This document shows, piece after piece, positions 39,501 to 56,383 of a stretch of DNA of 64,000 nt. A program made the position numbers and the translations under genes. Below the pieces are notes generated by a model that was given only the letters and a program-made list of their open reading frames with translations, was not told the DNA's origin and made no database searches. The stretch comes from Haliotis rufescens (lineage: Eukaryota). Location of the stretch: positions 33,604,001-33,668,000 of the forward strand of contig NW_025963780.1 in the NCBI RefSeq assembly GCF_023055435.1, read 5' to 3'. Within the stretch, counting starts at the first letter, position 1. Each line of letters begins with the position of its first letter.

Positions 39501-42500
39501 TCCAAGTTCGCAAAAGGTCGTTTTGACGTGACCTGTAATGGGATGTCCTCAGCAGAAGCGAGATCTTGTATCCGAGTTTAGGTAATCTAGGCATGTGATT
39601 AATCCTGTTTTGTATATTTAAAGCAGTAACTGTTTATTGTTAAGCAAGTTTATCTCTGCAGCTGTTGAAATATGCAGCTACTCACCGACTCGTCTCGCAT
39701 CAAAACACAGGGCTGTGTACTCGCGGGCAGATGACCACGGAGTACGCTGATCACTGTGTCGGATTAATGAGACTGATTAATGAGTGATTTCAGCATTTCG
39801 TTGCAAATTAGGTGTGTCGGAGTCAGAGTGCAAGACTATCAGATTAACGGGTCTAAATATCACTTATTTAATCGGTTCCCATCATTAGTGTCGGATAAAG
39901 CCGATTGTCAGATTAACGATTGTCGGATTAATGAGACTTAACTGTATAAGATAATTCGATGTGAAAAACAATCATATCTGACAATGCGAGGTTAACGACC
40001 ATGCATGCTACGAAGTCATGTATATTAACACATGATTAAATGTCATTTAAGAATGAAGAGGGAAATACATGAATGACTTGGTGAACACATTTGTACTTGA
40101 AGGTCAAACATCAATTATTAAAAAGTAGTTTTGCCCAATATGATGGTGCCACCATCTCGGCCACTCAAGACATCTGGCATACCACTTACTTTGAGTTATT
40201 TCAGTGTACACAACTGGTACAAGTACATTAGACTGGGATCTTCACATCGAGTCTTACTTACTTACTTACCTAAATTAGGAATTTAACGTGCGCTTTCCGA
40301 CATATGCGTATTTCGCGCACAGGCCCGCCAGGCCATTTGGTGTTTGGTCGAAAAAGGTATGTCCGAAAAGGTGAGGCAACCTAGGTGGGGCTGTTTAGGG
40401 TTGCTTACTTAATTTGGAGAACAATTTTGGAATTTTGGAATATGCCAAAAGGTGGAGAGGGGGGGAGACTAAAAGGAGTTTGTGTGTTTTTATAGGTTTA
40501 AAATTTTAGGGTTTATTGGCAGCTTGTCTGTTGTCCTTTTATTTTTAAATGCGGCCGAGTAGGCCTGTTTTGATTAGATATATGTCTAGTGTTTTAAAGG
40601 TTTTTAAGTCATTTAGGGGGTTCAGTACATTTGCTAGTGTCATTTGATTGTTGCAATTTAGTGTGGGTTGTAGTGTTGTTCTGTGTTGCACATCGAGTCT
40701 ATGGCCATGCATGCTTATAAGCCTAGATATGAAAATATCTCGAGATGAGAGAAATATGATATTTTAGTGGAGGTAACTCTTGTATGACAATAGTTGCGTC
40801 AAAGTGTTATGTTCACTGCAGTGAAATATCAAGTGTTATGTTTACTGCAGTGAAATATCCCTTGGGCACGCCAGAAACCTATGATTGTGGGTTCGAATCC
40901 CGGTTCGCCCCGATCATGTTTCTAGGTTTGTCAGCACCATACCCGTGCTCATGGGTTTCACCGAAGTGGTAAACGTCTGAGACCTGCATCACTTCGGGCT
41001 TTCCTCCCACATTAAGCTGACACGCCGTGATATAACTGGAACACTGTTATAAGCGGCGTTAAACCCAACTCACTCACTCACTCATTCTTGCTAAGTTCCA
41101 GCTCTAAGGCCTTGCCATCTCAGAGGACATGTTGAAAATGCAAAATGCAATGACTATGGTAAATTGAACAGATTGACGACAGACAACATGCCATTGCATG
41201 TGCTCACAGTTTATTTGTACAACTAGTTGCGCAAGAGTATCGTCCAATGTGTATAATCCAAGTATTTTTATTGTTAAATTATGTTAAAGTTTTATATATA
41301 CAGTCAAACCTCATTGTGCCAAACTCATGGGGACCAGAAAAACAGTTCCAGTTATCCGGGACTCAAGACATCGGGAACACTTTTTGTTAATTTGGATACT
41401 TGGGACTCCCAAATGAGTTCGAGACAACCAGGGGTTCGACATATCAAGTTCGACACAATGAGGTTTGACTGTACAGAAAAGCCGATCTCATAGGAAGGCC
41501 GAGGTATTAACTTGGTCCTTGAAATCTGTATCAGACTGTTATAAGTGGTAGATAAGCCCTACCCCAACCTTAAACTACGTCTCGTCATGGTCTGACATCG
41601 GAAATAGAATATCAACCGTCCGTATTGAATTACGCATGTTAATCCTGTCGTTGCACCATCTGTAATAAAAAGTGTTTAATTGTATATCTGGACTCATGTT
41701 TGTAATCTACGTAATCTACTTTCATCATGTTCATTCAATAATATTTACATTAATTTCGGTGTCCATCCGGTACTTACAACTTCAATTTGCCCCGTTCCAT
41801 AAGGTCTGCTTTACCAACTCGCCGTTATTTACAGCAACCACGCTCATATAACCGCTATTGACAACTTGAAATGCTCCTTAGTTGACAGAAAATGGATACA
41901 TATATCATAACTGCCATACTTTGACTTGTTAAAAGTAATATTTGTTGTAATTTGACAATTAAATGTCAACATATTGTTTCTGCAATGGAAATAACAGGTG
42001 TATATATTGTGTGTATCAGGCTATAGAAGTATGTTCAGGGGTAGAAACTAATATTTTTAGTCCAGAGATAACATATAGCAAAACCCTTATAAATGGCCTT
42101 TTTGTACTGGTCCTTATGATGCCTTAACTATTGGGCAGTTTGGCAAGGTCTGTAGGACAAGCGCCAATTTCTAATACTGAATTTTTTATACATGTACCTA
42201 TCTTCAGGGATGAGTCAGAGTGTCATGGTGACACTGTTGCACACGAGGAGCAACGCTGAGTCAGCACACCTGTCAGTACTTCACTACATGTGTGCTAAGG
42301 AAATGACACAAAAATCAACTTGATAATACCGAGTTTCATATTTATGACAGTTTGATTGAATGTTTGTGGAGCGATCCTATTCAGGTGGCACCAGGTGGAA
42401 TTCATGAACAGTTGACTAATATAATACTGCATCATCTCATTGACATTTATGGTGTCATGTATGGTCATATATGGTTGTTTTGACATCTTGGTGTAATACA

Positions 42501-45030
42501 TGGTCATTTTAACCTCATCTTAGTGTCATATATGGTCGTTTTAACCTCATCTTAGTGTCATATATGGTTGTTTGAACCTCAGCTTAGTGTTGTCACAATG
42601 TTGTTTACATGTTAGTATTCATGTTTTACCCTCTTCATGGCCAATTATTTATCTATGAGTCGGGGGGCACTGGGTGGCCCAGTCGTCTAAGGCGCCACGA
42701 TTCACTGTGCAGAGTTGCGTCCCTTGGGCACGTCAGAAACCTATGATTGTGGGTTTGAATCCCGGTTCGCCCCAATTATGTTTCTAGGTTTGTCAGCACC
42801 ATACCCTTGCTCGTGGATTTCACCGAAGTGGTAAACGTCCGAGACCTGCATCACTTCGGGCTTTCCTCCCACATTAAGCTGACAAGCTGCAATATAACTG
42901 TAATACTGTTAAAAGCGGCGTTAAACCCAACTCACTAACTCACACTCATCTATGAGTGTGTAGTGTAAAGTCATTAAATCATGTGTTAATAGGTATCAAT
43001 GACTGTTGCAAAGAAACTTTGTTTCTTTTTACATATTCTTTACTGTTGTTTCTTATAACCTTATTTATATGGTATTATGTTGAAAATAGTCCAGAAAATA
43101 TTCAGGTGAGCTACAGAGCATATTTTGATGAGAGCAAAAACAAATCAAGGAATTCCGAAAACAGGGTTGAATCAGAAAATGCCAAAGTGTATATTATTTC
43201 AGGTGGAAAATTAAAAGGTTAATTTATGACATAGAAAAGGAGCATCTGATGAGATGATCATTGTTTATGTTGCAGATTTACCGCTACCCCCGACAGACCT
43301 TTTCTTCCGTGATGGACCAGGCATTGGAATACTCCTCCCAGGAGGGGCTGAACTGGGTTGTGTCCCTCATCCCCACCAATCAGCTGTACGTCCTCGGCCT
43401 GCTCTTTGTCTACAGCTTCATCACTCCTGACTTCATGTTTTTCTTCATCCCGCTCTTCATCTTCTACCTCTCCTTCGCTGCCATCATCGTCTGCACCTTG
43501 CAGATGTTCTACAAGAAGAAGAAGCAGAACGATGCTGCAACTCTGGCTGGTGTTCTCAAAGAACTCGACGTGACCATCGATCTCGACAAAACGGAGTCTC
43601 AGTTCACCTGGAACTCACTCACTCCTTACATCGTCTTCTTTTGCAACCTGCCGCTCGTTATCGCGAGTTTCTCGCTTTGCAACAAATCCTACGTTCCTTG
43701 TGCCGAGATTACAGTCATTTCCTTCGTCATGACCGGATTATGTTTCTTCAGCCTCAGCGACCACCATGACAAGCTGACCTTCTTCGCGCTGTTCGCCAAC
43801 CTGCTGTCCTCACTCCCCGTGTTTCTACACAACTTCCCATCAGTGCCGTTACTTAAACAGATTATCGGGTTCCTCACAGATCCATTCATCGCTTTGGACA
43901 CTGGTGTGGGTATTACCTTTAATGTCAGTATTCCTTCAGTAGCATATGCAATAATCCCCTTGTTCTTTGTTCGAATGGCCACTCGGAAGTCGTGGGAAGG
44001 AACATACCGAGTCCTAATCCCCCATCTTGTCTGTTATTTCTGGTTTAACATCCTGACCTCGACCTTCCCTTTCACCTCCTGGGTGGGGCTAGCTCGGGCC
44101 ACCATTGGCTACATGCTTCTCCCTGTGCTAGTCCCACTCAGCCTCGTCGGAGTTGCTGTGATGTTCATCTTCGCCGTCTACAAAGCCTTCCAGACAGAGA
44201 TGCTTGGGAAGATGGTTGTGACTGTTGTCCTTCTTGCTATACCGATTCTCATGACCCAGACCAAGAAAATCTTCGGAAAAAAATTTGATGCTAAGTTTGG
44301 AATTGCCAAAAAGGTCGTCATGGTTGTTTTCGCCATTCTAGCTTTGGTGCCACTGATTTTTGTCAGAATTCCTGCATGGAAGAAAGAGGTTCCTGTTGAA
44401 CTGTCGTACGAAAATTACACTTCTTTATGTTTCCGAGAAAAAGTGGTAAATGATGTCCCGCAGCAAATTACTTGCAGCCATCTCATTGGTACAAAAATTA
44501 CATGGACTGGAACGGTTGAAGGTGTGACCGTTGTAAAAATTGAGAATACAGCCGAAAGCGTCATTGGCACTCTTCCCTCTTTCGTAGCGAAGCCTTTATA
44601 TTGCATGTATGGGCAGCCATTCCCGCAGTGTGACCGGAAACTGCTCAGTAAGAAGGGTTACAGTTTTTGCGTTATCATGCGTGGACTCGGACATTCATGC
44701 CATGTTAAGAACCACAATGTGTACACTTTCGAAATTCTCATGCTTACTGGGGATCAGAACATCAAAATAGAAGCTGGCGATAATTTCAAGGAAACGGTTC
44801 TTGCTCTGGAGATCGGGGACGTGGTGCAGTATAGAGGGGCACTGACAGATAACCTCGGAGGAACTGTCCCCAAATTAAAACTGTCTTCTTTGAAAGCAAC
44901 CAATCGCACGCTGCCAATCATGATGCATGTTGACGAGGATGACGACAAGTACATGTCCGCTGTTCAGGAAGCAATTGCCGTTACTTTCAACTTCCTCTGG
45001 TTTCCGCTGCTGGAGTTTTCTACCAAGTAA
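24504..45030 (+). CDS. WFS1: Wolframin (WFS1 orthologue), spliced model join(24504-24507,28248-28937,34910-35356,36282-36497,37641-37841,38970-39109,43276-45030), about 1150 aa
   Basis: All introns are GT-AG with compatible phases (1,1,1,1,1,0); total 3453 nt = 1151 codons. The peptide follows the wolframin layout: Sel1-like N-domain (GKHFLSLA...DWLLRASKQG), EF-like region, multi-TM region, luminal domain, C-terminal FNFLWFPLL. Large last exon as in vertebrate WFS1. Confidence 0.9.
24676..24783. mobile_element. Short palindromic MITE (Harbinger-like); second copy at about 46681-46804
   Basis: GGCCCACTTGCACAAAACGATCTTA ... TAAGATTGCTTTGAGCAAGTTGGCC flanked by CWG. Confidence 0.65.
25108..25278 (+). 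mobile_element. SINE family A
   Basis: Family match; TSD TCAACATTAACAGG. Confidence 0.88.
25315..25678. mobile_element. Penelope-like fold-back element with hammerhead motif (WFS1 intron 2)
   Basis: Inverted arms about 25348-25470/25543-25679; 12-bp TSD AACATTAAAGTG; TTGATAA-c-GGTGT...ACACC-GAAA at 25595-25624. Confidence 0.78.
27350..28105. repeat. 31-bp minisatellite (WFS1 intron 2)
   Basis: CTGAGGTCAACTGCTAATCCCTTCCATCACT, about 24 copies. Confidence 0.95.
28248..28937 (+). CDS. WFS1: WFS1 exon 3: S/T/P/E-rich low-complexity exon with six (R/K)WG repeats
   Basis: Acceptor CTTCCTTCCCTCAG|AC; 690-nt open frame (includes ORF 28463-28942); donor A|GTTAGT; phase 1 at both ends. Confidence 0.75.
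29738..30285. repeat. 53-bp G/T-rich minisatellite (WFS1 intron 3)
   Basis: GGTGGATTTAGGTGGATAGTTTTGTGCTTGGGGGTCAGGTGGATTGTTTCATG, about 10 copies. Confidence 0.93.
30286..31900. repeat. 24/22-bp G-rich minisatellite (WFS1 intron 3)
   Basis: GGCCTGGATGGTGAGGGTCAGGTG and a 22-bp variant; 214-bp higher-order duplication. Confidence 0.95.
33803..33978 (+). mobile_element. SINE family A
   Basis: Family match; TSD CTACTTATATATTT. Confidence 0.88.
34910..35356 (+). CDS. WFS1: WFS1 exon 4: PEPK/PKSV-repeat proline-rich exon
   Basis: Acceptor ATTACAG|AG; open frame (ORF 34933-35403); donor A|GTGAGT; phase 1/1 joins to exon 5. Confidence 0.8.
35900..36190. mobile_element. hAT-type MITE
   Basis: TIR CAGTGTCCGAAATAA/TTATTTCGGACTCTG; 8-bp TSD GATATGGC. 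Confidence 0.82.
36282..36497 (+). CDS. WFS1: WFS1 exon 5 (Sel1-like repeat region)
   Basis: PEVIRSWESDANKGSEEHQLKLGKHFLSLADSDIERDRNAGLALDWLLRASKQGSEEATELLQSCVNRSLP; CCGCAG| acceptor, G|GTAAG donor. Confidence 0.93.
37329..37597 (+). mobile_element. Short retroposon family B (about 250 bp, no tRNA head, (AAAC/AACC)n tail); representative copy
   Basis: Other copies at about 2648-2873+, 6105-6345-, 10755-11003-, 11331-11569+, 24216-24405+, 26565-26835+, 26921-27045+, 33492-33747+, 35752-35816+, 56440-56683-, 59462-59622-, 59882-60105+, 63437-63699+. Confidence 0.88.
37641..37841 (+). CDS. WFS1: WFS1 exon 6
   Basis: GINEKDANDITWCLKTSSYEKKIRYAARSLFQRINTTHKEALSKDEYMDAIKGVTGKVKEQRLLMAA; CTGCAG| acceptor, G|GTAGG donor. 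Confidence 0.92.
37915..38870. repeat. 37-bp minisatellite (WFS1 intron 6)
   Basis: CTTGGCCTACATCAGCTGAAACTCCAGTATTTATATT, about 25 copies. Confidence 0.95.
38970..39109 (+). CDS. WFS1: WFS1 exon 7
   Basis: GRKIGKEISENEFVKMLSKKIQGTVTLTTEELADTNVSYESAGYVTK; CACAG| acceptor, AAG|GTAAG donor; 140 nt converts phase 1 to phase 0. Confidence 0.9.
39268..39944. mobile_element. Tc1/mariner-pogo-type non-autonomous DNA transposon
   Basis: TA|CAGTCAAGTCCCGTTAATCCGACA ... TGTCGGATTAATGAGACTTAACTG|TA. Confidence 0.8.
40255..40688 (-). mobile_element. 5'-truncated LINE (I/Nimb-group-like ORF2 C-terminus plus 3' UTR)
   Basis: 12-bp TSD CACATCGAGTCT; minus-strand frame ...LANVLNPLNDLKTFKTLDIYLIKTGLLGRI* (stop 40545-40547); (TAAG)n tail. 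Confidence 0.75.
41301..41471. mobile_element. pogo/Tigger-type MITE
   Basis: TA|CAGTCAAACCTCATTGTG ... CACAATGAGGTTTGACTG|TA. Confidence 0.82.
43276..45030 (+). CDS. WFS1: WFS1 terminal exon (transmembrane and ER-luminal domains)
   Basis: Part of the 589-aa ORF 43261-45030 downstream of acceptor TTGCAG|. IYRYP...GLNWVVSLIPTNQ, multiple hydrophobic segments, W-x-G-x-Y-R-x-L-I-P-H-L, Cys-containing luminal part, TAA stop followed by AATAAA at about 45038 and 45055. Confidence 0.95.
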   Translation: MYRYPRQTFSSVMDQALEYSSQEGLNWVVSLIPTNQLYVLGLLFVYSFITPDFMFFFIPLFIFYLSFAAIIVCTLQMFYKKKKQNDAATLAGVLKELDVTIDLDKTESQFTWNSLTPYIVFFCNLPLVIASFSLCNKSYVPCAEITVISFVMTGLCFFSLSDHHDKLTFFALFANLLSSLPVFLHNFPSVPLLKQIIGFLTDPFIALDTGVGITFNVSIPSVAYAIIPLFFVRMATRKSWEGTYRVLIPHLVCYFWFNILTSTFPFTSWVGLARATIGYMLLPVLVPLSLVGVAVMFIFAVYKAFQTEMLGKMVVTVVLLAIPILMTQTKKIFGKKFDAKFGIAKKVVMVVFAILALVPLIFVRIPAWKKEVPVELSYENYTSLCFREKVVNDVPQQITCSHLIGTKITWTGTVEGVTVVKIENTAESVIGTLPSFVAKPLYCMYGQPFPQCDRKLLSKKGYSFCVIMRGLGHSCHVKNHNVYTFEILMLTGDQNIKIEAGDNFKETVLALEIGDVVQYRGALTDNLGGTVPKLKLSSLKATNRTLPIMMHVDEDDDKYMSAVQEAIAVTFNFLWFPLLEFSTK

Positions 45031-46459
45031 CCATGGCAATAAAATTTTATCAGTAATAAATGGATTGGATATGAACATTTAGTTTATGAGCTTGTAAATG
45101 ATGTTTTCAATTCGATGCATAATTCTACAAGAATGGTTAGGGTTGTGAATAGAATTTGTTAGAATTATTCTAAAAATGTATTGCATGCATAAATCTTTAT
45201 GATGTTTATGTGCATGTTTGCATATTTACTATGTTTGCTATATTGGTCGATTTGACAATTGTTTTGTCGTGGATGATATCAAAGTAAAAATTAAGAATAT
45301 TTAAAAAATATTAACATATATAGGGAAAAGTCTTTTTATGATCATTTTCACAAGCTTTGAGATTTTTAAAAAAGTATGAATTTTGTTAAAATAAATAGTT
45401 ATTACTTTGATGTTCAATCCCTATATTATAGCTCCAGGTAAGTTGTGTATTCGTATAAATACCGTAGTCGACATGATAAGCGCCCAGGGTGCTCTCAAAA
45501 TTAGAAATAGAAGGCTCGTATTAGAATAAAATTTTGGTGAAAAAAAAACAGAGTTGAAAGATCGTAAATTTAGTGGTTTATGCTGACAGCCTGAAATGAT
45601 ACAATAGAAAAGTGCATATTAAGGGTGTATATAACACACAAGTGCGTATTATACACAAATAAATAAGTCTTGTGTATATTGATCAATCGGAAGGGTGTTA
45701 ATTGGGGTTGTTCACTAGCCAATATATTTGCAAATATCGCTGTGCAAAATATATCACCACAACCCAATTAATTTTGAGTTGCCTGCATACAAATACTCAT
45801 GAAAAATGTATAAAATTAGTATGGTATTATATTAGCAACACTGTGCGTATTATCCAGTGAGGCCTTTTCAGCTTGCCTACATGTGTTTCCAAAGGATTCT
45901 CATCTGTTGATCAATGCAAGCATCACATATACGTGAACTGACTGAAGTGATTGATGTACAATAGAGTGTTTTCTCGCTTACTATAGCTTAGACCTGCGTA
46001 TCGCTGTTTATGAGAGGCTTGGGCCAGCTTTTCTACATATAACACTCAACTAGAACAGCTTTTTGAGCAGGATTTTTTTTAATAGTTCACTCATTGGTCT
46101 AGGATGCCCTACAGACTGGACCCAAGGCCGTAAATATATTATCCCCAACAAAAACTAAAAATAACCCAAATAAAGCCAATACTTAGTCACCTGTCTCCTC
46201 ACAGCTGAGAGTGGGCTAGACAATCCTACTTGGCGGATTACTCAATTAGATATACTACATGAGATTACGTGGCAACATATCATGGATTGAACCCTATAAC
46301 AATAGACAATTAGAATTTTCTGTGCTAGAAATTTGTATTTGTATGACCTTTTTTATTAAAAATAACAAAAATTAAGACTTTCTCTCCAATCAAGGATGTA
46401 TTCTATGAAAAAATGGAAAAAAGAAATTGAGACATCCTCTCCAAGCAGTGATTTATTTA

Positions 46460-46622
46460 GGGGCAGTGGTGTAGCCTAGTGGTTAATGCGTTTGCTTGTC
46501 ACACCAAAGACCCGGGTTCAATTCCCACATGGGTACAATGTGTGAAGACCATTTCTGGTGTCCCTAGCTGTGATATTGCTGGAATATTGGTAAAAGCGAC
46601 GTAAAACCATACTGACTCACTC
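46460..46622 (+). mobile_element. SINE family A (diverged)
   Basis: Family match with CpG decay. Confidence 0.8.
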
Positions 46623-47368
46623 CCAGTGATGTATTCCATGCTAATGCCTCAAGAGTCTGCCAGTATGTGACTGGAATCCAGGGCCCACATGCACAAAACG
46701 ATCTTAGCACAAAACGATCTTAGCACTACAGCTATCATAAACCTATGTAAAAGTGTGGGAGTTGCGATCATCTTTGTGCTAAGATCGTTTGTGCAAGTGG
46801 GCCTGACCAAATTGACTCCTAATTTGATAGTTCTAAATCAAAACAAGAGGCAAACAGCTTGTTTGATTTTATTTTCATATCCCCCTCAAAATATGACATA
46901 TTTGCACATTTTCATAAAAACACTACATTATCACTTTTTTCTTCTTGTTCTGTATATGCAAATTGAATTCTAAATTTTGAAAACCCAAGAAATTGCTCTG
47001 TCGTAAAGAAAAGATGAAAAATATTGAAGACTCTCTATGCTGTAGTGTTCTACATGTTCAATAAAACACCCTACTGTAGTGTTAGAAGCGAGGAAATCAG
47101 TTAATATATTTTGTGTTGTGTGACTATTCCAAACATTCGGCGATCGATGTGAAAGCTCAAATCTTTTCTCACCGGACACAATGGTGTTTAATAGTAATCA
47201 AAACTTGGTGATTATGTTGTAAAGTCTTTTACTATTGTTCTGGTTCTGTGTTAAGAAGTTTTGATATTTTGTTACAGGTGGATGTGGAAAATACTTTCAG
47301 TTACTGGAATGCCATTAGAATGTTATGAATTGTTCATTGTTATGGAATTTTAACACTATTTACTAGCA

Positions 47369-48408
47369 AGTCTTTGAATGGCATTTAGAAGTGATACACA
47401 TAAGAGAGAGAGAATTTATGGATGTCAACTTCTTTATTATGAGGAACACAACATTTCGGAGTACATACTTACTCCTTCATCAGGTGAATGAAGGAGTAAG
47501 CATACACTGATTTACCTGATGGAGGAGTATGCATACACTGATTAACCTGATGAAGGAGTAGGCATACACTGATTTACCTGATGAAGGAGTAAGCATACAC
47601 TGTTTTACCTGATGAAGGAGTAGGCATACACTGATTTACCTGATGAAGGAGTAGGCATACACTGATTTACCTGATGAAGGAGTAGGCATACACTGATTTA
47701 CCTGATGAAGGAGTAGCATACACTGATTTACCTGATGAAGGAGTAGGCATACACTGATTTACCTGATGAAGGAGTAGGCATACACTGATTTACTTGATGA
47801 AGGAGTAGGCATATACTGATTTACCTGATGGAAGGAGTAGGCATACACTGATTTACCTGATGGAAGGAGTAGGCATACACTGTTTTACCTGATGAAGGAG
47901 TAGGCATACACTGATTTACCTGATGAAGGAGTAGGCATACACTGATTTACTTGATGAAGGAGTAGATATATATACTGTTTTACCTGATGAAGGAGTAGGC
48001 ATACACTGATTAACCTGATGAAGGAGTAGGCATACACTGATTTACTTGATGAAGGAGTAGATATATATACTGTTTTACCTGATGAAGGAGTAGTTATACA
48101 CTGTTTTACCTGATGAAGCAGTAGGCATACACTGATTTACTTGATGAAGAAGTAGACATACACTGTTTTACCTAATGAAGGAGTAGGCATACACTGATTT
48201 ACCTGATGAAGGAGTGAGCATAAATTGATTTACCTGATGAAGGAGTAGGCATACATTGATTTACCTGATGAAGGAGTAGGTAACACTGTTTTACCTGATG
48301 AAGGAGTAGGCATACACTGATTTACCTGATGAAGGAGTAAGTATATACTCTGAAACATTGTGTTCCTCATAATACAGATTTTGACATCCATAGATCCTCC
48401 TCTCTCCT
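47369..48408. mobile_element. Penelope-like fold-back element with internal 31-bp hammerhead-derived minisatellite
   Basis: 14-bp TSD ACTATTTACTAGCA; inverted arms about 47404-47486/48324-48406; CTGATGA-a-GGAGTA...TACTCT-GAAA at 48326-48355; about 27 units of CCTGATGAAGGAGTAGGCATACACTGATTTA between the arms. Confidence 0.8.
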
Positions 48409-51400
48409 ACTATTTACTAGCATGCTGTTAATATGCTGTGATGCATTAGTGTATATTATGTTCTGATCTGTAATTGATTTGTAAACAAATATTAATATAT
48501 TGTCAAAGACACATAGCAATATTTTCCTGTACAGTTGGTAAATTTGTGCTTTTGTTTATTTATTGTAATTTAAATATGATGAGAAGATATTTCTTAATAT
48601 CAAAGATTTAGAATACAAATCAAATATGCATTTACCTTGCGCAGGTATATCTGATCTCTTTTGATGTCTGACATTAGTTAATTGTCACTAAATTCTGTGT
48701 GCCCCTCTGTGATATTTTTGTTCTATTACATGTCTGTGTATTTAATATATCATTTTTATAGTTATTATTTAATATTTCAGATTATCAGTTATTTGTCTTT
48801 TGGGATTGTGTCCTTTTATACATCTATTGCTCAGGTTGAACCACCTGCAGACAGCAGGGTTGTGTTAATTTCCATATTATCTGATGAGAACAATTCCTTG
48901 TTGCTATTGGATCTTGGTCAGAACAAGACGGTACATGAAAAAAAGTAGAAAAAGTTGAATGAAAGCTTTTAAAATAACAGATCAAACAAGAACTTTGTCA
49001 TAATATTTTCAGTATATTACCGTAGACAAGAAAACATCTATTAAGTACAACCATTGTACAAAAATTGTACTACGAGCCTATGACAATAAATCATAGCAGT
49101 TCTATGGAGAAAGTTTTTTGTGTGAGTGAAATCTAAATAAAATTTCTGTCCACCCCTACAAGAAGCAGGTTCAGGCTGATAATCAGAGTAATATGGGTAT
49201 AAATACACCCTGTGTGTCGAGGATGGTAGTTATGCTGCTTGTCATGATATTATATATTGATTTGATTTGACTGTTTAAAGTGTGCCAGTACATTTTACCT
49301 TGTTTCTTGAATGCCTTGGAGAAGAACTTCTTGAGCTCCTTGTTATGAGATTATGAAATAGCATTACTTTATGAAAACAGTGTATATGAGTGTTGATGTT
49401 CTACTTAACTTTTCAACATTATTTTTTATTGTCACATTAACAAATGATCAAATGACTGACAATGTGAAAAGAGTTACCAAAGTACAAAAGAAATATCGAA
49501 TGGCACATTTCAAACAAGACTCCGAAGATGTATCAGTATCTATTTTGATAATTACAGATAACCTGTATCTCTAAACAATTTGATTAAATACAAACATTGT
49601 CAATCAATAGGCAATTCTTTCCAAAACGATGTAAATAATTTGATTTTTTATGTATATATACTACTCAAAAACAGTTAGGGATAACCCGATTCTTTCCTAT
49701 TACTATAGTTTATTGTTTATGTAACTAGTTATAGGAATTGGGTGATCCACTGTTTGATTAGTGTAGAAAAATATGAAATCAAAATGTATTCTTGTTTCTA
49801 ATTGAATTTTGAATGTAAGTTCCGTGTAAGTTTTGTCACTCGCTGTGCAGAGTTGCGTCCCTTGGGCATGTCAGAATTCTATGATTGTGGGTTTGAATCC
49901 CGGTTCGCCCTGATTATGTTTCTAGGTTTCTCAGCACCATACCCGTGCTCGTGGGTTTCACCGAAGTGGTAAATGTCTGAGACCTGTATCACTTTGGGCT
50001 TTCTTCCAACGCTAAGCTGACACGCCGCAATATAACTGGAATACTGTTAAATGCGGCGTTAAACTCAACTCACTCACTCACTCACTCACTCACTCACTCA
50101 CTCACTCACTCTGTCACATAATTTCACTATGGCTTGAAGCATAGCTGTATTGCTTATTGGCAGCAGTACTTCTGTAATAAATACTTACATGTGAATGGAG
50201 GGTGCTACTGGCAGGACATGCTTACCCTTTTTGCAAACACCTGGTGTCATCACTGATTTTCAGTGGTCCATTCTTATATTTTTACAGCTATTTTGGCCTT
50301 TATGCCAAATGGAATCTGTTTTAGAAGAAAATCAAAACTTGTTATTCTCTTGTATTCATGTTTTATATTATGTTACATGTATGACAGTATCAACTATACA
50401 ATGTGCTGATGGTTGTATACAGCCACAGTGCTACAAGTCTAAGTCTGTACGTGTACTTGAGGCCATGACAAATTGATTATTTGTTCACAGGGTTTTCTGG
50501 TTAAAGTACAAGAGCTTGGAGTCGGTTTTATTATTTGGTTGAAATGACAAACTGTTCCTGAAAATAGAGACAGAATGTCAATATCCCTCTGAGCTGTGAG
50601 GGGGGCTCGGGTGGCCCAGTCGTCTAAGGCGCTGTGATTCGCTGTGCAGAGTTTCCTCCCTTGGACACACCAGAAACCTATGATTGTGGGTTCGAATCCC
50701 GGTTCGCTCCAGTTATGTTTTTAGGTGTGTCAGCACCATACCTGTGCGCGTTGGTTTCACTGAAGTGGTAAATGTCTAAAACCTGCATCAATTTTCCTCC
50801 CACATTAAGCTGACATGCCATGATTTAACTGGAATACTGTTAAAAGCGTTGAACTCACTCACTCGCTCACTCACTGAGCTGTGGTACATACTTCGTATGC
50901 TTTCACTTAGGTAGTCGTAATGTGTATGTAGAGTTGCCATCTCTGATCAGAAGGTTGTGGGTGAGCTGAAATGGGGTTTAACATTGTTTTCAAGAATATT
51001 GCACTTACATAACGTGTAAGCTGTGTGTGTGTGTGTGTGTCTGCTTGTACTTGTCCGGACTAATGTCAGTTTTATAGTGCTATCCCACTGAGATACCATG
51101 CTGCATTTTAACATGGCTACCCCACTCAGACACAGTATACAGACTCCGAGCCGACCATTCCTTGTTTTAGCCCCATAAAGCTGAGCACCAGGTAGGGTAA
51201 TAACAGGTACCACCTGAGGATTGAACCACAAACCTTCCCAGTGTAGGGGAAACCCTTTTTTCATATAATCCCTGGGAAATGATTAGAAGTATGACGGCTA
51301 CTACTGCAACTGTCATTTTATTAGCACTTTTTAACTTGACCATTGATTGTTGCTTGGGATTTAATTAAGTTTTCATGACACTAGCTGTGATTGTGTTTTG

Positions 51401-51544
51401 TAATACACTAAAACCTTATGACCCACATCCCAAATTAACAGACACATTGTATTTTATTTAATTGATTCTGATGAACAAGTTATCAGTTAGTCATGGCCTG
51501 AGTCACATTTCTTTCACTAAATTTGATATAAAGTCTTTTATAGG

Positions 51545-51625
51545 CATTCACCTGATGAAGGAGCAACAAGTAGCTCTGAAACATAATGGCAGACAAAGAA
51601 TAAAAGAAGTTGCTATCCATAAAAA
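51545..51625 (+). mobile_element. PLE 3'-end fragment with hammerhead motif
   Basis: CTGATGA-a-GGAGC-aacaagta-GCTCT-GAAAC (51552-51582) followed by AATAAAAGAAGTTGCTATCCATAAA. Confidence 0.65.
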
Positions 51626-51991
51626 GTATCATGTGTTCAAATATGTTATTGATCAACTGTCTTGTAGCTAATAGAGTTTTTGTATTCAAGTAATCATGGT
51701 AATGTTCCAGAGTGGAAAGAATTGTAAAAAGACTATTTGTTGAGAGTTGGTAGTTTTTTGTGATGAATCTATCGAGAGTGATGATTGTCAAAGCTTTTGG
51801 TAATTAGGCTGTCTACTGACAAGTATTCTACTCAAACGTGTACATGTGTATCTACTTAGGTATCGGCTTACAATGTTATACACTATGCAGCAGTAGCAGA
51901 CATAGATGCAGTAGTTTTGTACAACTGGCTTCAAATAAAGGTAGAACCAAACTGACACTGGTTCCTGGATTTGTTTTGTTGGGAGATGCAA

Positions 51992-54572
51992 TAGATGCCT
52001 GTAGTGGAACACTGTCCTGGGTGGAGGTTCTACAGATGCCTGTAGTGGAACACTGTCTTAGGTGGTGGTTCTACAGATGCCTGTAGTGGAACACTCTCCT
52101 GGGTGGTGATTCTACAGATGGCTGTAGTGGAACACTGTCCTGGGTGGTGGTTCTACAGATGCCTGTAGTGGAACACTGTCCTGGGTGGTGGTTCTACAGT
52201 TGCCTGTAGTGGAACACTGTCTTAGGTGGTGGTTCTACAGATGCCTGTAGTGGAACACTGTCCTGGGTGGTGGTTCTACAGTTGCCTGTAGTGGAACACT
52301 GTCCTAGGTGGTGGTTCTACAGATGCCTGTAGTGGAACACTCTCCTGGGTGGTGATTCTACAGATGCCTGTAGTGGAACACTCTCCTGGGTGGTGATTCT
52401 ACAGATGCCTGTAGTGGAACACTGTTCTGGGTGGTGGTTCTACAGATGCCTGTAGTGGAACACTGTTCTGGGTGGTGGTTCTACAGATGCCTGTAGTGGA
52501 ACACTCTCCTGGGTGGTGATTCTACAGATGCCTGTAGTGGAACACTGTCTTAGGTGGTGGTTCTACAGATGCCTGTAGTGGAACACTGTCTTAGGTGGTG
52601 GTTCTACAGATACCTGGAGTGGAACACTGTCCTGGGTGGTGGTTCTACAGATACCTGGAGTGGAACACTCTCCTGGGTGGTGATTCTACAGATGCCTGTA
52701 GTGGAACACTGTCTTAGGTGGTGGTTCTACAGATGCCTGTAGTGGAACACTGTCTTAGGTGGTGGTTCTACAGATGCCTGTAGTGGAACACTGTCCTGGG
52801 TGGTGGTTCTACAGATGCCTGTAGTGGAACACTCTCCTGGGTGGTGGTTCTACAGATGCCTGTAGTGGAACACTGTCCTGGGTGGTGGTTCCACAGATGC
52901 CTGTAGTGGAACACTGTCTTAGGTGGTGGTTCTACAGTTGCCTGTAGTGGAACACTGTCCTGGGTGGTGGTTCTACAGATGCCTGTAGTGGAACACTGTC
53001 CTGGGTGGTGGTTCTACAGATGCCTGTAGTGGAACACTGTCTTAGGTGGTGGTTCTACAGTTGCCTGTAGTGGAACACTGTCCTGGGTGGTGGTTCTACA
53101 GATGCCTGTAGTGGAACACTGTCTTAGGTGGTGGTTCTACAGTTGCCTGTAGTGGAACACTGTCTTAGGTGGTGGTTCTACAGTTGCCTGTAGTGGAACA
53201 CTGTCCTGGGTGGTGGTTCTACAGATGCCTGTAGTGGAACACTGTCTTAGGTGGTGGTTCTACAGTTGCCTGTAGTGGAACACTGTCCTGGGTGGTGGTT
53301 CTACAGATGCCTGTAGTGGAACACTGTCTAAGGTGGTGGTTCTACAGATGCCTGCAGTGGAACACTGTCCTAGGTGGTGGTGATTCTACAGATGCCTGTA
53401 GTGGAACACTCTCCTGGGTGGTGGTTCTACAGATGCCTGTAGTGGAACACTGTCCTGGGTGGTGGTTCTACAGATGCCTGTAGTGGAACACTGTCCTAGG
53501 TGGTGGTTCTACAGATGCCTGTAGTGGAACACTCTCCTGGGTGGTGGTTCTACAGATGCCTGTAGTGGAACACTGTCCTGGGTGGAGGTTCTACAGATGC
53601 CTGTAGTGGAACACTGTCCTGGGTGGTGGTTCTACAGATGCCTGTAGTGGAACACTCTCCTGGGTGGTGGTTCTACAGATGCCTGTAGTGGAACACTGTC
53701 CTGGGTGGTGGTTCTACAGATACCTTTAGTGGAACACTCTCCTGGGTGGTGGTTCTACAGATGCCTGTAGTGGAACACTCTCCTGGGTGGTGGTTCTACA
53801 GATGCCTGTAGTGGAACACTCTCCTGGGTGGTGGTTCTACAGATGCCTGTAGTGGAACACTGTTCTGGGTGGTGGTTCTACAGATACCTTTAGTGGAACA
53901 CTCTCCTGGGTGGTGGTTCTACAGATGCCTGTAGTGGAACACTGTCCTGGGTGGTGGTTCTACAAATGCCTGTAGTGGAACACTGTCCTAGGTGGTGGTT
54001 CTACAGATGCCTGTAGTGGAATACTGTCTTAGGTGGAGGTTCTACAGATGCCTGGAGTGGAACACTGTCCTGGGTGGTGGTTCTACAGATGCCTGTAGTG
54101 GAACACTCTCCTGGGTGGTGGTTCTACAGATGCCTGTAGTGGAACACTGTCCTGGGTGGTGGTTCTACAGATACCTTTAGTGGAACACTCTCCTGGGTGG
54201 TGGTTCTACAGATGCCTGTAGTGGAACACTCTCCTAGGTGGTGGTTCTACAGATGCCTGTAGTGGAACACTGTCCTGGGTGGTGGTTCTACAGATGCCTG
54301 TAGTGGAACACTCTCCTGGGTGGAGGTTCCACAGATGCCTGGAGTGGAACACTGTCCTGGGTGGTGATTCTACAGATGCCTGGAGTGGAACACTGTCCTA
54401 GGTGGTGGTTCTTCAGATGCCTGTAGTGGAACACTGTTCTGGGTGGTGGTTCCACAGATGGCTGTAGTGGAACACTGCCCAAGGTGGTGGTTCTACAGAT
54501 GCCTGTAGTGGAACACTGTTCTTGGTGGTGATTCTACAGATACCTTTAGTGGAACACAGTCCTAGGTGGTGG
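51992..54572. repeat. 41-bp minisatellite, about 63 copies
   Basis: CAGATGCCTGTAGTGGAACACTGTCCTGGGTGGTGGTTCTA. Confidence 0.97.
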
Positions 54573-55074
54573 TTGAATGGGTGGTGGAATGAAGACTGAC
54601 CTGGGTTCAGGCTGCAGGTCAGATAAAGTTTGTCGTACATGCTGCAGATGAGACCCATTACCAGGAATCCTCGATTTTCAAGCAATATTCCAGCAATATT
54701 AACCTACCAAAGTGAGGAATTGAACCCGGTCTAAGGTGTGCAATTGTTTTATACTACCACACACTCTGCACTACATGGGAAGAGTAAGTGAGAAAACAGT
54801 ACTTCAGTTATTTTTTAATAGGATTTCAATAATATTACAACGACAATGTGGGTTGGTGTAGGAGGAAGTGGTACAGGTCTTGGACATTTGTCACCCTGTT
54901 GAAACCCAGGAGCACAAGTGACAAACCTAAAAACATTTTCAGTACAAAGCGGGTTTCGAACATGTGATCACGGATCACACGACCTGTTGCACCTTGGACA
55001 ACAGGGCCATATGTGTCCCCTACATTCACATAGGCAGCTTTAACTTAGATTGCAAGATCATATTTGAAACAGAT

Positions 55075-55532
55075 CGGAGAAGGAGGTCTGTATAACATGT
55101 AATCCCGGGTCAGAGAAGGAGGTCTGTATAACGTGTAATCCCGGGTCCACGAAGGAGATCTGTATAACATGTAATCCCGGGTCAGAGAAGGAGGTCTGTG
55201 TAACATGTAATCCCGGGTCCACGAAGGAGGTCTGTGTAGCATGTAATAGCGGGTCAGAGAAGGAGGTCTATAAACCATGTAATCCCGGGTCAGAGAAGGG
55301 GGTCTGTGTAGCATGTAATCCCGGGTCCACGAAGGAGGTCTGTGTAGCATGTAATAGCGGGTCAGAGAAGGAGGTCTATAAACTATGTAATCCCGGGTCA
55401 GAGAAGGGGGTCTATGTAACATGTAATCCCGGGTCCACGAAGGAGGTCTGTGTAGCATGTAATCCCGGGTCCACGAAGGAGGTCTGTGTAGCATGTAATC
55501 CCGGGTCGGAGAAGGAGGTCTGTATAACATGT
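55075..55532. repeat. 36-bp minisatellite
   Basis: GAAGGAGGTCTGTGTAGCATGTAATCCCGGGTCCAC, about 12 copies. Confidence 0.93.
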
Positions 55533-56383
55533 ACTGCCCGGTTGGAGCGGGAGGTTAACATACGATATACACCTCCTTTGGAACAGTAGGTCAATGGTTG
55601 GCGCAGGAGGTCAATACACGGGATATTCCCAGGTCAAAACAGGTGTATAATGGATATGCACCTTGGTTTGAGCAGGAGGTCTATACAAGATACACTCGTG
55701 ATAGGAGTTAGTAAGTTGAGTTTAATTTAACGCTGCTATTAGCAGTATTCCAGTTGTATCACGGCGCGTCAGCTTGATGTTTGAGGAAAGCCCGAAGTGA
55801 TGCAGGATTCGGACGTTTACGACTTCGGTGACACCACGAGCACGGATATGGTGCTGACAAACCTAGAAACATAATCATGGCGAAGAGGGATTCGAACGCA
55901 CGATTATAGGCTTCTGACCTGCCAAAGGGACGCAACTCTTCACAGCGTATTGCGGCGCCTTAGACGACTGGGCCACCTGGGCCCCCTTGTTTGGAAGAGG
56001 AGGAGGATATCTACGATATATAGGATATCTAATATATTCCCTAATAAATAAATGAAGTGTCACGACACATTTACTTATTTTGTGGCCAGAATATCGATAT
56101 CAAAATACGAACTACATGATAACGAACACTCGTAGGAATCCGGGTTACAGAACTGGTTCCTAGCAACCTATTGTCGTACGAGCCAACTAACGGGATCGAG
56201 TTGTCAGACTCATTGCATGTCGCATCCCGACTGCGTAGATCGATGCTCATGATTCAATCACTGGATTTTTGGGTCGAGACTCGATTATTCGATAACCGTC
56301 GTATAGATGGAATGTTGTAGCTTTAAGCAACAAACAGAACAAAAGAGTCATGAAAAGACGGGCAATTGTCGAGTTTAAAATAT

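What the first reader, a model, noticed from the sequence alone, without database searches (positions are those of the whole stretch)
47369..48408. A minisatellite born from half a hammerhead ribozyme inside a fold-back retroelement
Seen: between two ~80-bp inverted arms and a 14-bp TSD (ACTATTTACTAGCA) lie about 27 tandem 31-bp units CCTGATGAAGGAGTAGGCATACACTGATTTA. Each unit is the CUGAUGA core plus most of stem II, but with GATTTA in place of GAAAC. Only the last unit runs into the complete motif (48326-48359). Inference: slippage or template jumping at the ribozyme hairpin (during reverse transcription or later replication) seeded a satellite. A transcript would display many 5' half-cores that could pair with the single GAAA half or with other PLE RNAs. 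It lies 2.3 kb past the WFS1 stop, so it could fall in an extended 3' UTR.
Basis: partly seen in the sequence, partly recalled or inferred. Interest (0 to 1): 0.7.

Follow-up and report, generated by a model that had tools for sequence, protein, structure and literature searches.

The report
Penelope junction stutter seeds hammerhead minisatellites
This 27-copy repeat is a piece of a jumping gene's self-cutting RNA motif, likely duplicated once at the joint of a back-to-back insertion and likely expanded later as ordinary DNA; it is predicted to be unable to cut RNA, and at least 16 other sites in the genome hold separate repeats of the same motif, most starting at the same spot.

Summary
Observation confirmed, with one phase error. 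A 14-bp target duplication frames two head-to-head ends of a Penelope-like element (PLE), with 26 full 31-bp units between them. Each unit is one contiguous family segment (-6 to +24 around CUGAUGA). GATTTA is the next unit's Helix I strand, not a substitute for GAAAC. The family has thousands of copies, links upstream to an RT plus GIY-YIG-type ORF, and is fold-back at 41 of 69 sampled loci. The 31-mer is unique to this locus. At least 16 other loci carry arrays of the same motif with periods of 19-49 bp. Unit starts fall at -10 to -3 in 16 of 16 scored arrays, where ordinary copies are also truncated. Arrays from the downstream tail often start at the predicted cleavage site. Likely origin: a duplication made while cDNA ends were joined at insertion, then DNA-level expansion; the units share four derived changes. 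The terminal hammerhead has lost its Helix III palindrome and is predicted to be locked in the arm-arm stem, so trans-ribozyme function is rejected. WFS1 3' UTR inclusion is undecided. Sibling arrays of complete hammerheads suggest a birth route for retrozymes. This scan noted similar arrays in other genomes.

The parts
47355..47368 (.). left target-site duplication (14 bp)
   Evidence: D4, 100% identical
47369..47400 (-). one-sided PLE tail (family about +81 to +112), present on this arm only
   Evidence: left arm ends at +111; right arm ends at about +82 (48408); 36 of 41 sampled fold-backs have one arm ending at +70 to +87 and the other at +106 to +115 (counted)
47369..47492 (-). left arm: inverted, 5'-truncated pLTR end (family -9 to +112)
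   Evidence: 3.4% from the family majority
47447..47489 (-). antisense minimal hammerhead motif, CpG-decayed (GAAATGTT)
47476..47492 (+). fold-back junction hairpin TTCAT-CAGGTGA-ATGAA; inferred snap-back point of the top-strand cDNA
   Evidence: DNA fold -1.2 kcal/mol; same junction in array-less loci L161, L181, L104
47493..47509 (+). partial first unit (family +8 to +23, then G); with ATGAA it forms the 21-bp direct repeat inferred to be the seed
47510..48319 (+). 26 tandem units of 30-33 bp, each family -6 to +23 plus G; no GAAA, broken stem II
   Evidence: four derived changes shared by most units; 0 intact motifs
48320..48408 (+). right arm: terminal pLTR end (family -6 to about +82) with decayed minimal hammerhead 48320-48362; family cleavage site predicted between 48359 and 48360
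48409..48422 (.). right target-site duplication (14 bp)
   Evidence: D4
43258..45030 (+). context: long open frame encoding the C-terminal part of wolframin (WFS1); AATAAA at 45038 and 45055

Best explanation
This is one head-to-head insertion of two truncated ends of a Penelope-like retrotransposon, in which a 31-bp piece at the joint was likely duplicated once while the two cDNAs were joined and then likely expanded much later as an ordinary, catalytically dead minisatellite. Shown: TSD, two arms ending at the family's two fixed 3' end points, a junction shared with array-less copies, units that are a contiguous family segment, and loss of Helix III. Inferred steps: (1) the PLE protein nicks both strands 14 bp apart and primes two cDNAs at two RNA sites (+82 and +112); (2) both cDNAs stop at the family's preferred 5' end, just upstream of CUGAUGA, probably a transcription start or an RT stall; (3) the top-strand cDNA folds back through TTCAT/ATGAA and copies 16 nt of itself before joining the other cDNA at -6, which leaves a 21-bp direct repeat at 31-bp spacing; (4) one unit gains three or four substitutions, and slippage or unequal exchange then amplifies it to 27 copies. 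The array has no predicted ribozyme role.
For: Family scale: 2,678 and 4,219 exact 14-mers. Upstream RT (RVT_1 E 1e-5; best PDB hits are TERT, E 0.046) and GIY-YIG-type ORF in related loci that run into the same pLTR. 41 of 69 sampled loci are fold-backs; 25 of these 41 have a TSD, 19 of them 11-14 bp. 5' ends of ordinary copies: 33 of 81 arms at -12 to +6 against 8 at +7 to +28 (p 8e-6), and 9 at +31 to +34, the predicted cleavage site (p 0.0015). Arrays at 17 or more loci for the core 14-mer against 6 for a tail 14-mer; odds ratio 4.4, p 0.001, computed with 16 against 6. Unit starts at -10 to -3 in 16 of 16 scored arrays, chance 6e-9 if uniform. Tail arrays start at +33/+34 in 3 of the 6 loci, and also in L150 and in the second duplication of L073. 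Arrays sit at the 5' junction also where there is no long left arm (7 of 22 loci not called fold-back). Identical junction in L161, L181, L104. Late expansion: the unit majority differs from the family at 4 of 31 sites while units average 4.2% from their own majority, and the 33-bp variant recurs 95 bp apart. Literature passages: the PLE protein extends both strands from two start sites (PMC11167929); cDNA snap-back at R2 5' junctions (PMC11371274).
Against: No insertion intermediate was observed; the steps are read from end products. The -10 to -3 window was chosen after seeing the data. Several units include the palindrome tip (L031, L071, L074, L091, L190), which later slippage could also produce. 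Copy number does not track arm-arm divergence (Spearman 0.08, p 0.79, n 13) and only weakly tracks divergence from the family (0.42, p 0.049, n 22). A cap-derived G before -6, expected if that end is a capped RNA start, is not in excess (13 of the 100 listed rows, of 258 matches). RVT_1 scored below Pfam's cut-off (25.8 against 29.6 bits), and Pfam did not recognise the endonuclease. Fold-back calls are automatic and a few may be wrong; L159/L160 look like one duplicated copy, and L099 gave three of the 81 arms.
Confidence: 0.7

Rival explanations
1. The seed arose after insertion, by replication slippage or cruciform-induced repair at the centre of the palindrome, with no role for reverse transcription.
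For: Some units span the fold-back tip. Unit junctions show 1-4 bp microhomology (here TC at -8/-7 and +23/+24, read). The window is rich in unrelated minisatellites (51 TRF rows).
Against: Fold-backs are not enriched among array loci (15 of 22 against 41 of 69, p 0.62). Arrays without a long left arm have the same unit start (L036, L039, L079, L080, L089, L099, L247). Tail arrays start at the predicted RNA cleavage site, which has no meaning at DNA level.
Confidence: 0.15
2. The whole array was written at insertion by reiterative, telomerase-like copying or by rolling-circle reverse transcription of a 31-nt RNA circle.
For: PLE RT is kin to TERT (PMC8557442 passages). Young-looking loci hold 3-5 near-identical units (L071 100%, L125 100%, L074 97%, L099 97%). 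Three- and four-base stutters lie at other junctions (L016, L030, L248).
Against: The 31-nt unit has no GAAA or cleavage site, so it cannot cut out a circle. The unit is found nowhere else. Units share four changes against the family yet are only 7.5% apart pairwise, less than the 11.8% between the arms, and show higher-order duplication. A few cycles at insertion are not excluded; 27 are unlikely.
Confidence: 0.09
3. The insertion is a functional RNA element in an extended WFS1 3' UTR: half-cores assembling trans-hammerheads, or an 80-bp double-stranded stem that regulates the mRNA.
For: Contigs of two runs guessed to be RNA (X10, X16; two studies) lie on both flanks. An arm-arm stem is predicted in either transcript orientation.
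Against: The terminal Helix III is broken and the arms would sequester the motif. 0 intact motifs in the locus. Minimal hammerheads are inactive as monomers and weak as dimers (PMC4209133). AATAAA lies 8 and 25 nt after the stop, and RNA-guess contigs end at 45084 (X19) and 45123 (X16), a weak hint of a short UTR. Contigs give no strand or transcript identity.
Confidence: 0.04
4. Assembly artefact (a collapsed or expanded repeat).
For: The array length itself was not checked against reads.
Against: Units carry distinct, ordered variants. DNA-run contigs of X2 run 28 nt into the left end (to 47396) and span the right junction (48345-49865).
Confidence: 0.02

Closest known systems
EN+ Penelope-like element insertions with an inverted 5'-truncated copy and a one-sided 30-40 bp tail (PMC8557442 passages; PMC3846280 passages; PMC11167929 passages and section 3 part 2)
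   Same: Head-to-head arms, palindrome at the junction, about 30-nt tail on one arm, TSD, AT-rich target, hammerhead in the pLTR, RT plus GIY-YIG-type ORF upstream in longer copies.
   Different: Only about 90-120 nt of each end is present, and a 27-copy minisatellite sits at the junction. The passages read do not describe junction-anchored arrays.
Minimal type I hammerheads of metazoan PLE pLTRs (PMC4209133, parts 1-2 of 4 read)
   Same: Family motif has the extra base between 9 and 10.1, G10.1-C11.1, a long Helix II (6 bp), a short Helix I and palindromic 15.2-16.2. A second family in the genome keeps the fold with a different stem II.
   Different: Both copies here are CpG-decayed in Helix III, and the array units stop before GAAA.
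Non-LTR retrozymes (PMC7229834 passages; bioRxiv 10.64898/2026.07.22.740005 parts 1-3 of 5)
   Same: Tandem repeat derived from a PLE pLTR and centred on a hammerhead. The preprint proposes local amplification of a PLE end.
   Different: Retrozyme units hold a complete hammerhead (consensus 51-972 bp in the preprint; 150-450 bp repeats in the 2020 paper) and recur as families. This 31-bp unit has half a motif, is single-locus and lies inside one TSD-bounded insertion.
Snap-back and template-jump 5' junctions of R2 retrotransposon insertions (PMC11371274 passages)
   Same: A cDNA 3' end primes on itself or jumps template before the 5' junction is sealed.
   Different: Different retroelement class; the passages read report no later minisatellite growth. 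It is an analogy for the mechanism, not membership.

Membership tests
EN+ Penelope-like element (truncated copy) | pLTR linked to an ORF with PLE-type RT | tested here: met
   Family sequence extends upstream into a broken ORF. L229 417-aa frame: RVT_1 E 1e-5 (below the gathering score), best PDB hits TERT E 0.046. Core and tail motifs lie downstream of the same ORF in L230 and L244, one of the two in L232, L234, L240. The locus itself has no ORF.
EN+ Penelope-like element (truncated copy) | C-terminal GIY-YIG endonuclease | tested here: inconclusive
   A CIYQIPC-x-C..YIGET..EH pattern follows the RT; recognising it as GIY-YIG/CCHH is from my own knowledge. Pfam and PDB searches gave no significant hit.
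EN+ Penelope-like element (truncated copy) | inverted 5'-truncated copy and one-sided 30-40 bp tail | tested here: met
   Here arms end at +111/112 and about +82; 36 of 41 sampled fold-backs are alike.
EN+ Penelope-like element (truncated copy) | target-site duplication | tested here: met
   14 bp here; 25 of 41 sampled fold-backs, mostly 11-14 bp.
Minimal type I hammerhead | core CUGANGA + unpaired base + Helix II with G10.1-C11.1 + GAAA | tested here: met
   Both arms (the right arm closes with G-U). Not met in any array unit.
Minimal type I hammerhead | palindromic 15.2-16.2 allowing a dimeric Helix III | tested here: not met
   Right arm C.A mismatch, self-duplex +2.8; left arm U.G, +0.8; intact copy -3.5 kcal/mol.
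Minimal type I hammerhead | self-cleavage | not testable with these tools
   Needs an in vitro assay. Rfam has no hit here or on an intact copy.
Non-LTR retrozyme | at least two consecutive units each with a complete hammerhead | tested here: not met
   0 intact motifs at this locus; L074 has 5, L080 19 and L099 3 by motif count, adjacency checked only for L074 and L099.
Non-LTR retrozyme | unit dispersed as a family at several loci | tested here: not met
   21 of 21 matches lie in this array.
Non-LTR retrozyme | expressed as monomeric circular RNA | not tested
   No suitable run; the one small-RNA run laid on the right flank gave 0 reads, which is no test.
MITE (DNA transposon) | equal terminal inverted repeats reaching both ends, fixed TSD length | tested here: not met
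   Arms are unequal (tail), 5' ends vary, TSDs 7-17 bp, and the family is joined to an RT ORF.

The most novel reading that the evidence does not exclude
PLE integration itself stutters at the 5' ends of its RNA template (the pLTR start just before the hammerhead, and the hammerhead's own cut site). These junction duplications are the birth route of hammerhead satellites: short units give dead half-ribozyme minisatellites like this one, while units of 41-83 bp (L080, L074, L099) give concatemers of complete minimal hammerheads that supply the dimer partner in cis, that is, newborn non-LTR retrozymes. The pile-up at +33/+34 would also be genomic evidence that the PLE hammerhead cleaves in vivo and that the cleaved RNA is used as template.
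Probability: 0.3. Interest if true: 0.7.

Novelty: new variant of a known kind. Interest (0 to 1): 0.4.

Why it matters
The locus alone is a dead minisatellite in a known kind of insertion. Its value is as one of a countable series. The series links two open points: how PLEs form their tandem and inverted junctions (named as unresolved in PMC8557442) and how retrozyme tandem repeats first arise from PLE ends (proposed without a mechanism in the 2026 preprint). It gives exact predictions for the existing in vitro PLE system. It also bears on whether the hammerhead cuts in vivo: PMC11167929 found no RNA-seq reads beginning or ending at that site, whereas here genomic copies and arrays start there more often than at neighbouring positions. 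I found no paper holding all of 'Penelope-like', 'minisatellite', 'ribozyme' and 'junction'. Four broader searches listed none whose title or abstract start describes junction-anchored arrays. Subscription papers and supplements (for example Fig. S7C of PMC7229834, 'minimal HHR copies in tandem') were not seen and may bear on novelty.

Tried and rejected
Rfam: no hammerhead hit in window 40000-56000 or on intact copy L004; uninformative for minimal motifs. Cap-G signature at -7 as proof of an RNA start: G in 13 of 100 listed rows (9 loci), A 32, T 55, of 258 matches (counted by hand); not supported. TATA/Inr spacing upstream fits a start site (TATA within 12 nt upstream in 60 of 93 matches, overlapping loci not removed) but proves nothing. 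Array length against arm divergence: no correlation. Fold-back as a requirement for arrays: rejected (p 0.62). Pfam and PDB on endonuclease fragments: no significant hit. Protein atlas: no answer. Expression: no RNA holder listed on record; runs guessed to be RNA were contigs without strand; small-RNA run X21 laid 0 reads, no test. An X10 contig starting at 48419 inside the TSD is not evidence of an empty site. Two degenerate arrays (L035, L081) were left out of the 16 scored for unit start; L085 and L086 are chance matches to the 12-mer and were ignored; L083/L084 are degenerate family-2-like arrays, not scored. No intact autonomous copy was seen among the loci examined (8 of 150 protein matches translated). 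No fold or complex prediction was run: no protein is encoded at the locus.

Full report
Numbering: position 0 is the C of the family's CTGATGA core (48326 on the + strand, 47483 on the - strand). The predicted cleavage site lies between +33 and +34.

1. Observation. The structure is as described: a 14-bp TSD at 47355-47368 and 48409-48422, arms of 80 nt at 88% complementarity, and an array of period 31 with 27.4 copies. In register it reads: TSD, left arm (family +112 back to -9, reversed), a partial unit, 26 full units, right arm (-6 to about +82), TSD. The unit is the contiguous family segment -6 to +23 followed by G. GATTTA is therefore the start of the next unit (family ATTCA), not a substitute for GAAAC. 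The WFS1-type frame stops at 45030.

2. The element. The right arm has 1,408 first-look candidates in the 1.33-Gb genome; exact 14-mers from the core and from the tail occur 2,678 and 4,219 times. I took the first 69 distinct places of the tail list on contig C1 as a sample not chosen for arrays. An automatic call gave 41 of 69 as head-to-head fold-backs; 25 of the 41 have a TSD (19 of 11-14 bp), and in 36 of the 41 one arm ends near +80 and the other near +112. This is the inverted copy and one-sided tail described for PLEs (PMC8557442 passages; PMC3846280 passages). PMC11167929 traces the tail to two RT start sites and reports extension of both target strands. Longer copies run upstream into a broken ORF. 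A 417-aa frame hits RVT_1 at E 1e-5, below the curated cut-off, and its best PDB matches are telomerase RTs. The endonuclease pattern is recognisable by eye, but no library confirmed it. So the locus is two short PLE ends; a fold-back is the commonest form in this family, not a rarity.

3. The hammerhead. The family motif meets the published features of minimal PLE hammerheads (PMC4209133 parts 1-2): an unpaired base after A9, G10.1-C11.1, a 6-bp Helix II, a palindromic ACGU and a short Helix I. A second family in the genome keeps these with a different stem II and a GUC triplet. At this locus both copies are CpG-decayed. The sense copy cannot pair 15.2-16.2 (self-duplex +2.8 against -3.5 kcal/mol), and the two arms are predicted to pair with each other over about 72 of 80 nt in a read-through RNA of either strand. 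No unit has GAAA. The trans-ribozyme idea therefore lacks a working partner.

4. The array is one of a series. The 31-mer junction occurs only here (21 of 21). A gapped pattern found 134 matches (100 listed) from at least 17 loci including this one, with periods of 19-49 bp and 0 for the reversed control. One search added one more family-1 locus and arrays of the second family (periods 24, 33, 37). The same test on a tail 14-mer gave 10 matches at 6 loci: odds ratio 4.4, p 0.001, using 16 against 6 loci over 14-mer counts. In the scored loci the array lies at the 5' junction and, with the exception of L091, whose last unit is short, ends in a full arm. In 16 of 16 scored arrays the unit starts at -10 to -3 (two degenerate arrays dropped); the joint chance under a uniform start is 6e-9, with the window chosen afterwards. 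Tail arrays start at +33/+34 in 3 of 6 loci, and in L150 and L073 besides. Ordinary copies are truncated at the same two places: 33 of 81 arms at -12 to +6 (p 8e-6 against +7 to +28) and 9 at +31 to +34 (p 0.0015). Fold-backs are not enriched among array loci (15 of 22 against 41 of 69, p 0.62).

5. Mechanism. Shown: anchoring of units at the family's truncation points, and the junction CAGGTGA-ATGAA-GGAG in array-less copies L161, L181 and L104. Predicted: a weak TTCAT/ATGAA hairpin at that cDNA end. Inferred: two cDNAs, primed on the two strands, stop near -6 to -9; one snaps back and copies 16 nt before the join, leaving a 21-bp direct repeat 31 bp apart. Snap-back and template jumps at 5' junctions are reported for R2 (PMC11371274 passages); whether RT or a repair polymerase does it here is open. 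Growth came later: the unit majority differs from the family at 4 of 31 sites (G at +24 in 20 of 20 31-bp units; it may instead come from the palindrome tip). Units are 7.5% apart against 11.8% between arms, ancestral bases survive at the array edges, and a 33-bp variant recurs 95 bp apart. Against this reading: copy number does not follow arm divergence (n 13), some units include the palindrome tip, and a cap-derived G was not in excess.

6. Relation to WFS1. AATAAA lies at 45038 and 45055. Contigs of X19 and X16 end at 45084 and 45123; contigs of X10 and X16 also lie on both flanks of the insertion. These runs are only guessed to be RNA, and contigs show neither strand nor gene, so inclusion in the UTR cannot be told.

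7. Novelty and verdict. PLE fold-backs, tails, minimal hammerheads and pLTR-derived tandem repeats are in print (papers above; PMC7229834 passages; the 2026 preprint, parts 1-3 of 5). This array fails the retrozyme test (no complete motif, single locus). I did not find junction-anchored, sub-ribozyme minisatellites described (searches; supplements not seen). Earlier unreviewed notes of this scan report similar arrays in other genomes and one elsewhere in this genome; they are not independent evidence. The bolder reading is that the same stutter yields complete-hammerhead concatemers (L074 with 5, L080 with 19, L099 with 3 intact motifs) and thus newborn retrozymes; probability about 0.3. Verdict: a real feature, a new variant of a known kind, the locus likely inert; interest 0.4.

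Noticed in passing
window 51546-51640 (+): A solo, decayed copy of a second hammerhead-bearing family (stem II GGAGC/GCTCT), truncated near the same -6 point; this family also seeds arrays (L082 37 bp, L087 24 bp, L088 and L090 33 bp).
   Followed up: partly
L074 (G000:C79:6632999-6633200), L080 (C445:56777245-56780600), L099 (C1:5865725-5865955): Arrays whose units are complete minimal hammerheads (5, 19 and 3 intact motifs). In L074 the unit carries GTGAAT from the palindrome tip, which extends Helix I to about 6 bp. Best candidates for a cleavage assay.
   Followed up: partly
L122, L124, L125, L150, L073 (second duplication): Tandem units that begin at +33/+34, the predicted cleavage site; also 9 of 81 ordinary arms end at +31 to +34. 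A possible genomic trace of in vivo cleavage.
   Followed up: partly
L016, L248, L030: Microsatellites at the junction made from element sequence: (ATG)n from the core and (ACTT)n from the antisense stem II.
   Followed up: no
window 47369-47492 against 48320-48408: The arms are unequally diverged from the family majority (left 3.4%, right 13.6%); different source RNAs or faster mutation next to the array are both possible.
   Followed up: no
L039 (G000:C2:9240052): The host target sequence is itself partly repeated at the 5' junction before five 49-bp units, as expected of end-joining with templated insertion.
   Followed up: no
L195, L201, L207, L210, L215: An AP-endonuclease/RT/RNase H LINE sits directly after the truncated PLE pLTR at several loci, near the hammerhead's 5' border; possibly targeted insertion into the pLTR.
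   Followed up: no
window 12607-61676: About ten other long minisatellites (periods 22-53 bp) in 64 kb; nine were inspected by eye and show no hammerhead or PLE arms. The genome seems to expand seeds readily.
   Followed up: partly
window 46678-46806, 45450-45764, 46395-46709: A small hairpin (weak miRNA-family matches, below gathering score) and two high-copy repeats between the WFS1 stop and the insertion.
   Followed up: no
window 46756-47396: A run labelled organism B (X16) matches this flank with no differences and runs 28 nt into the insertion; the insertion may be shared, or the label may mislead.
   Followed up: no
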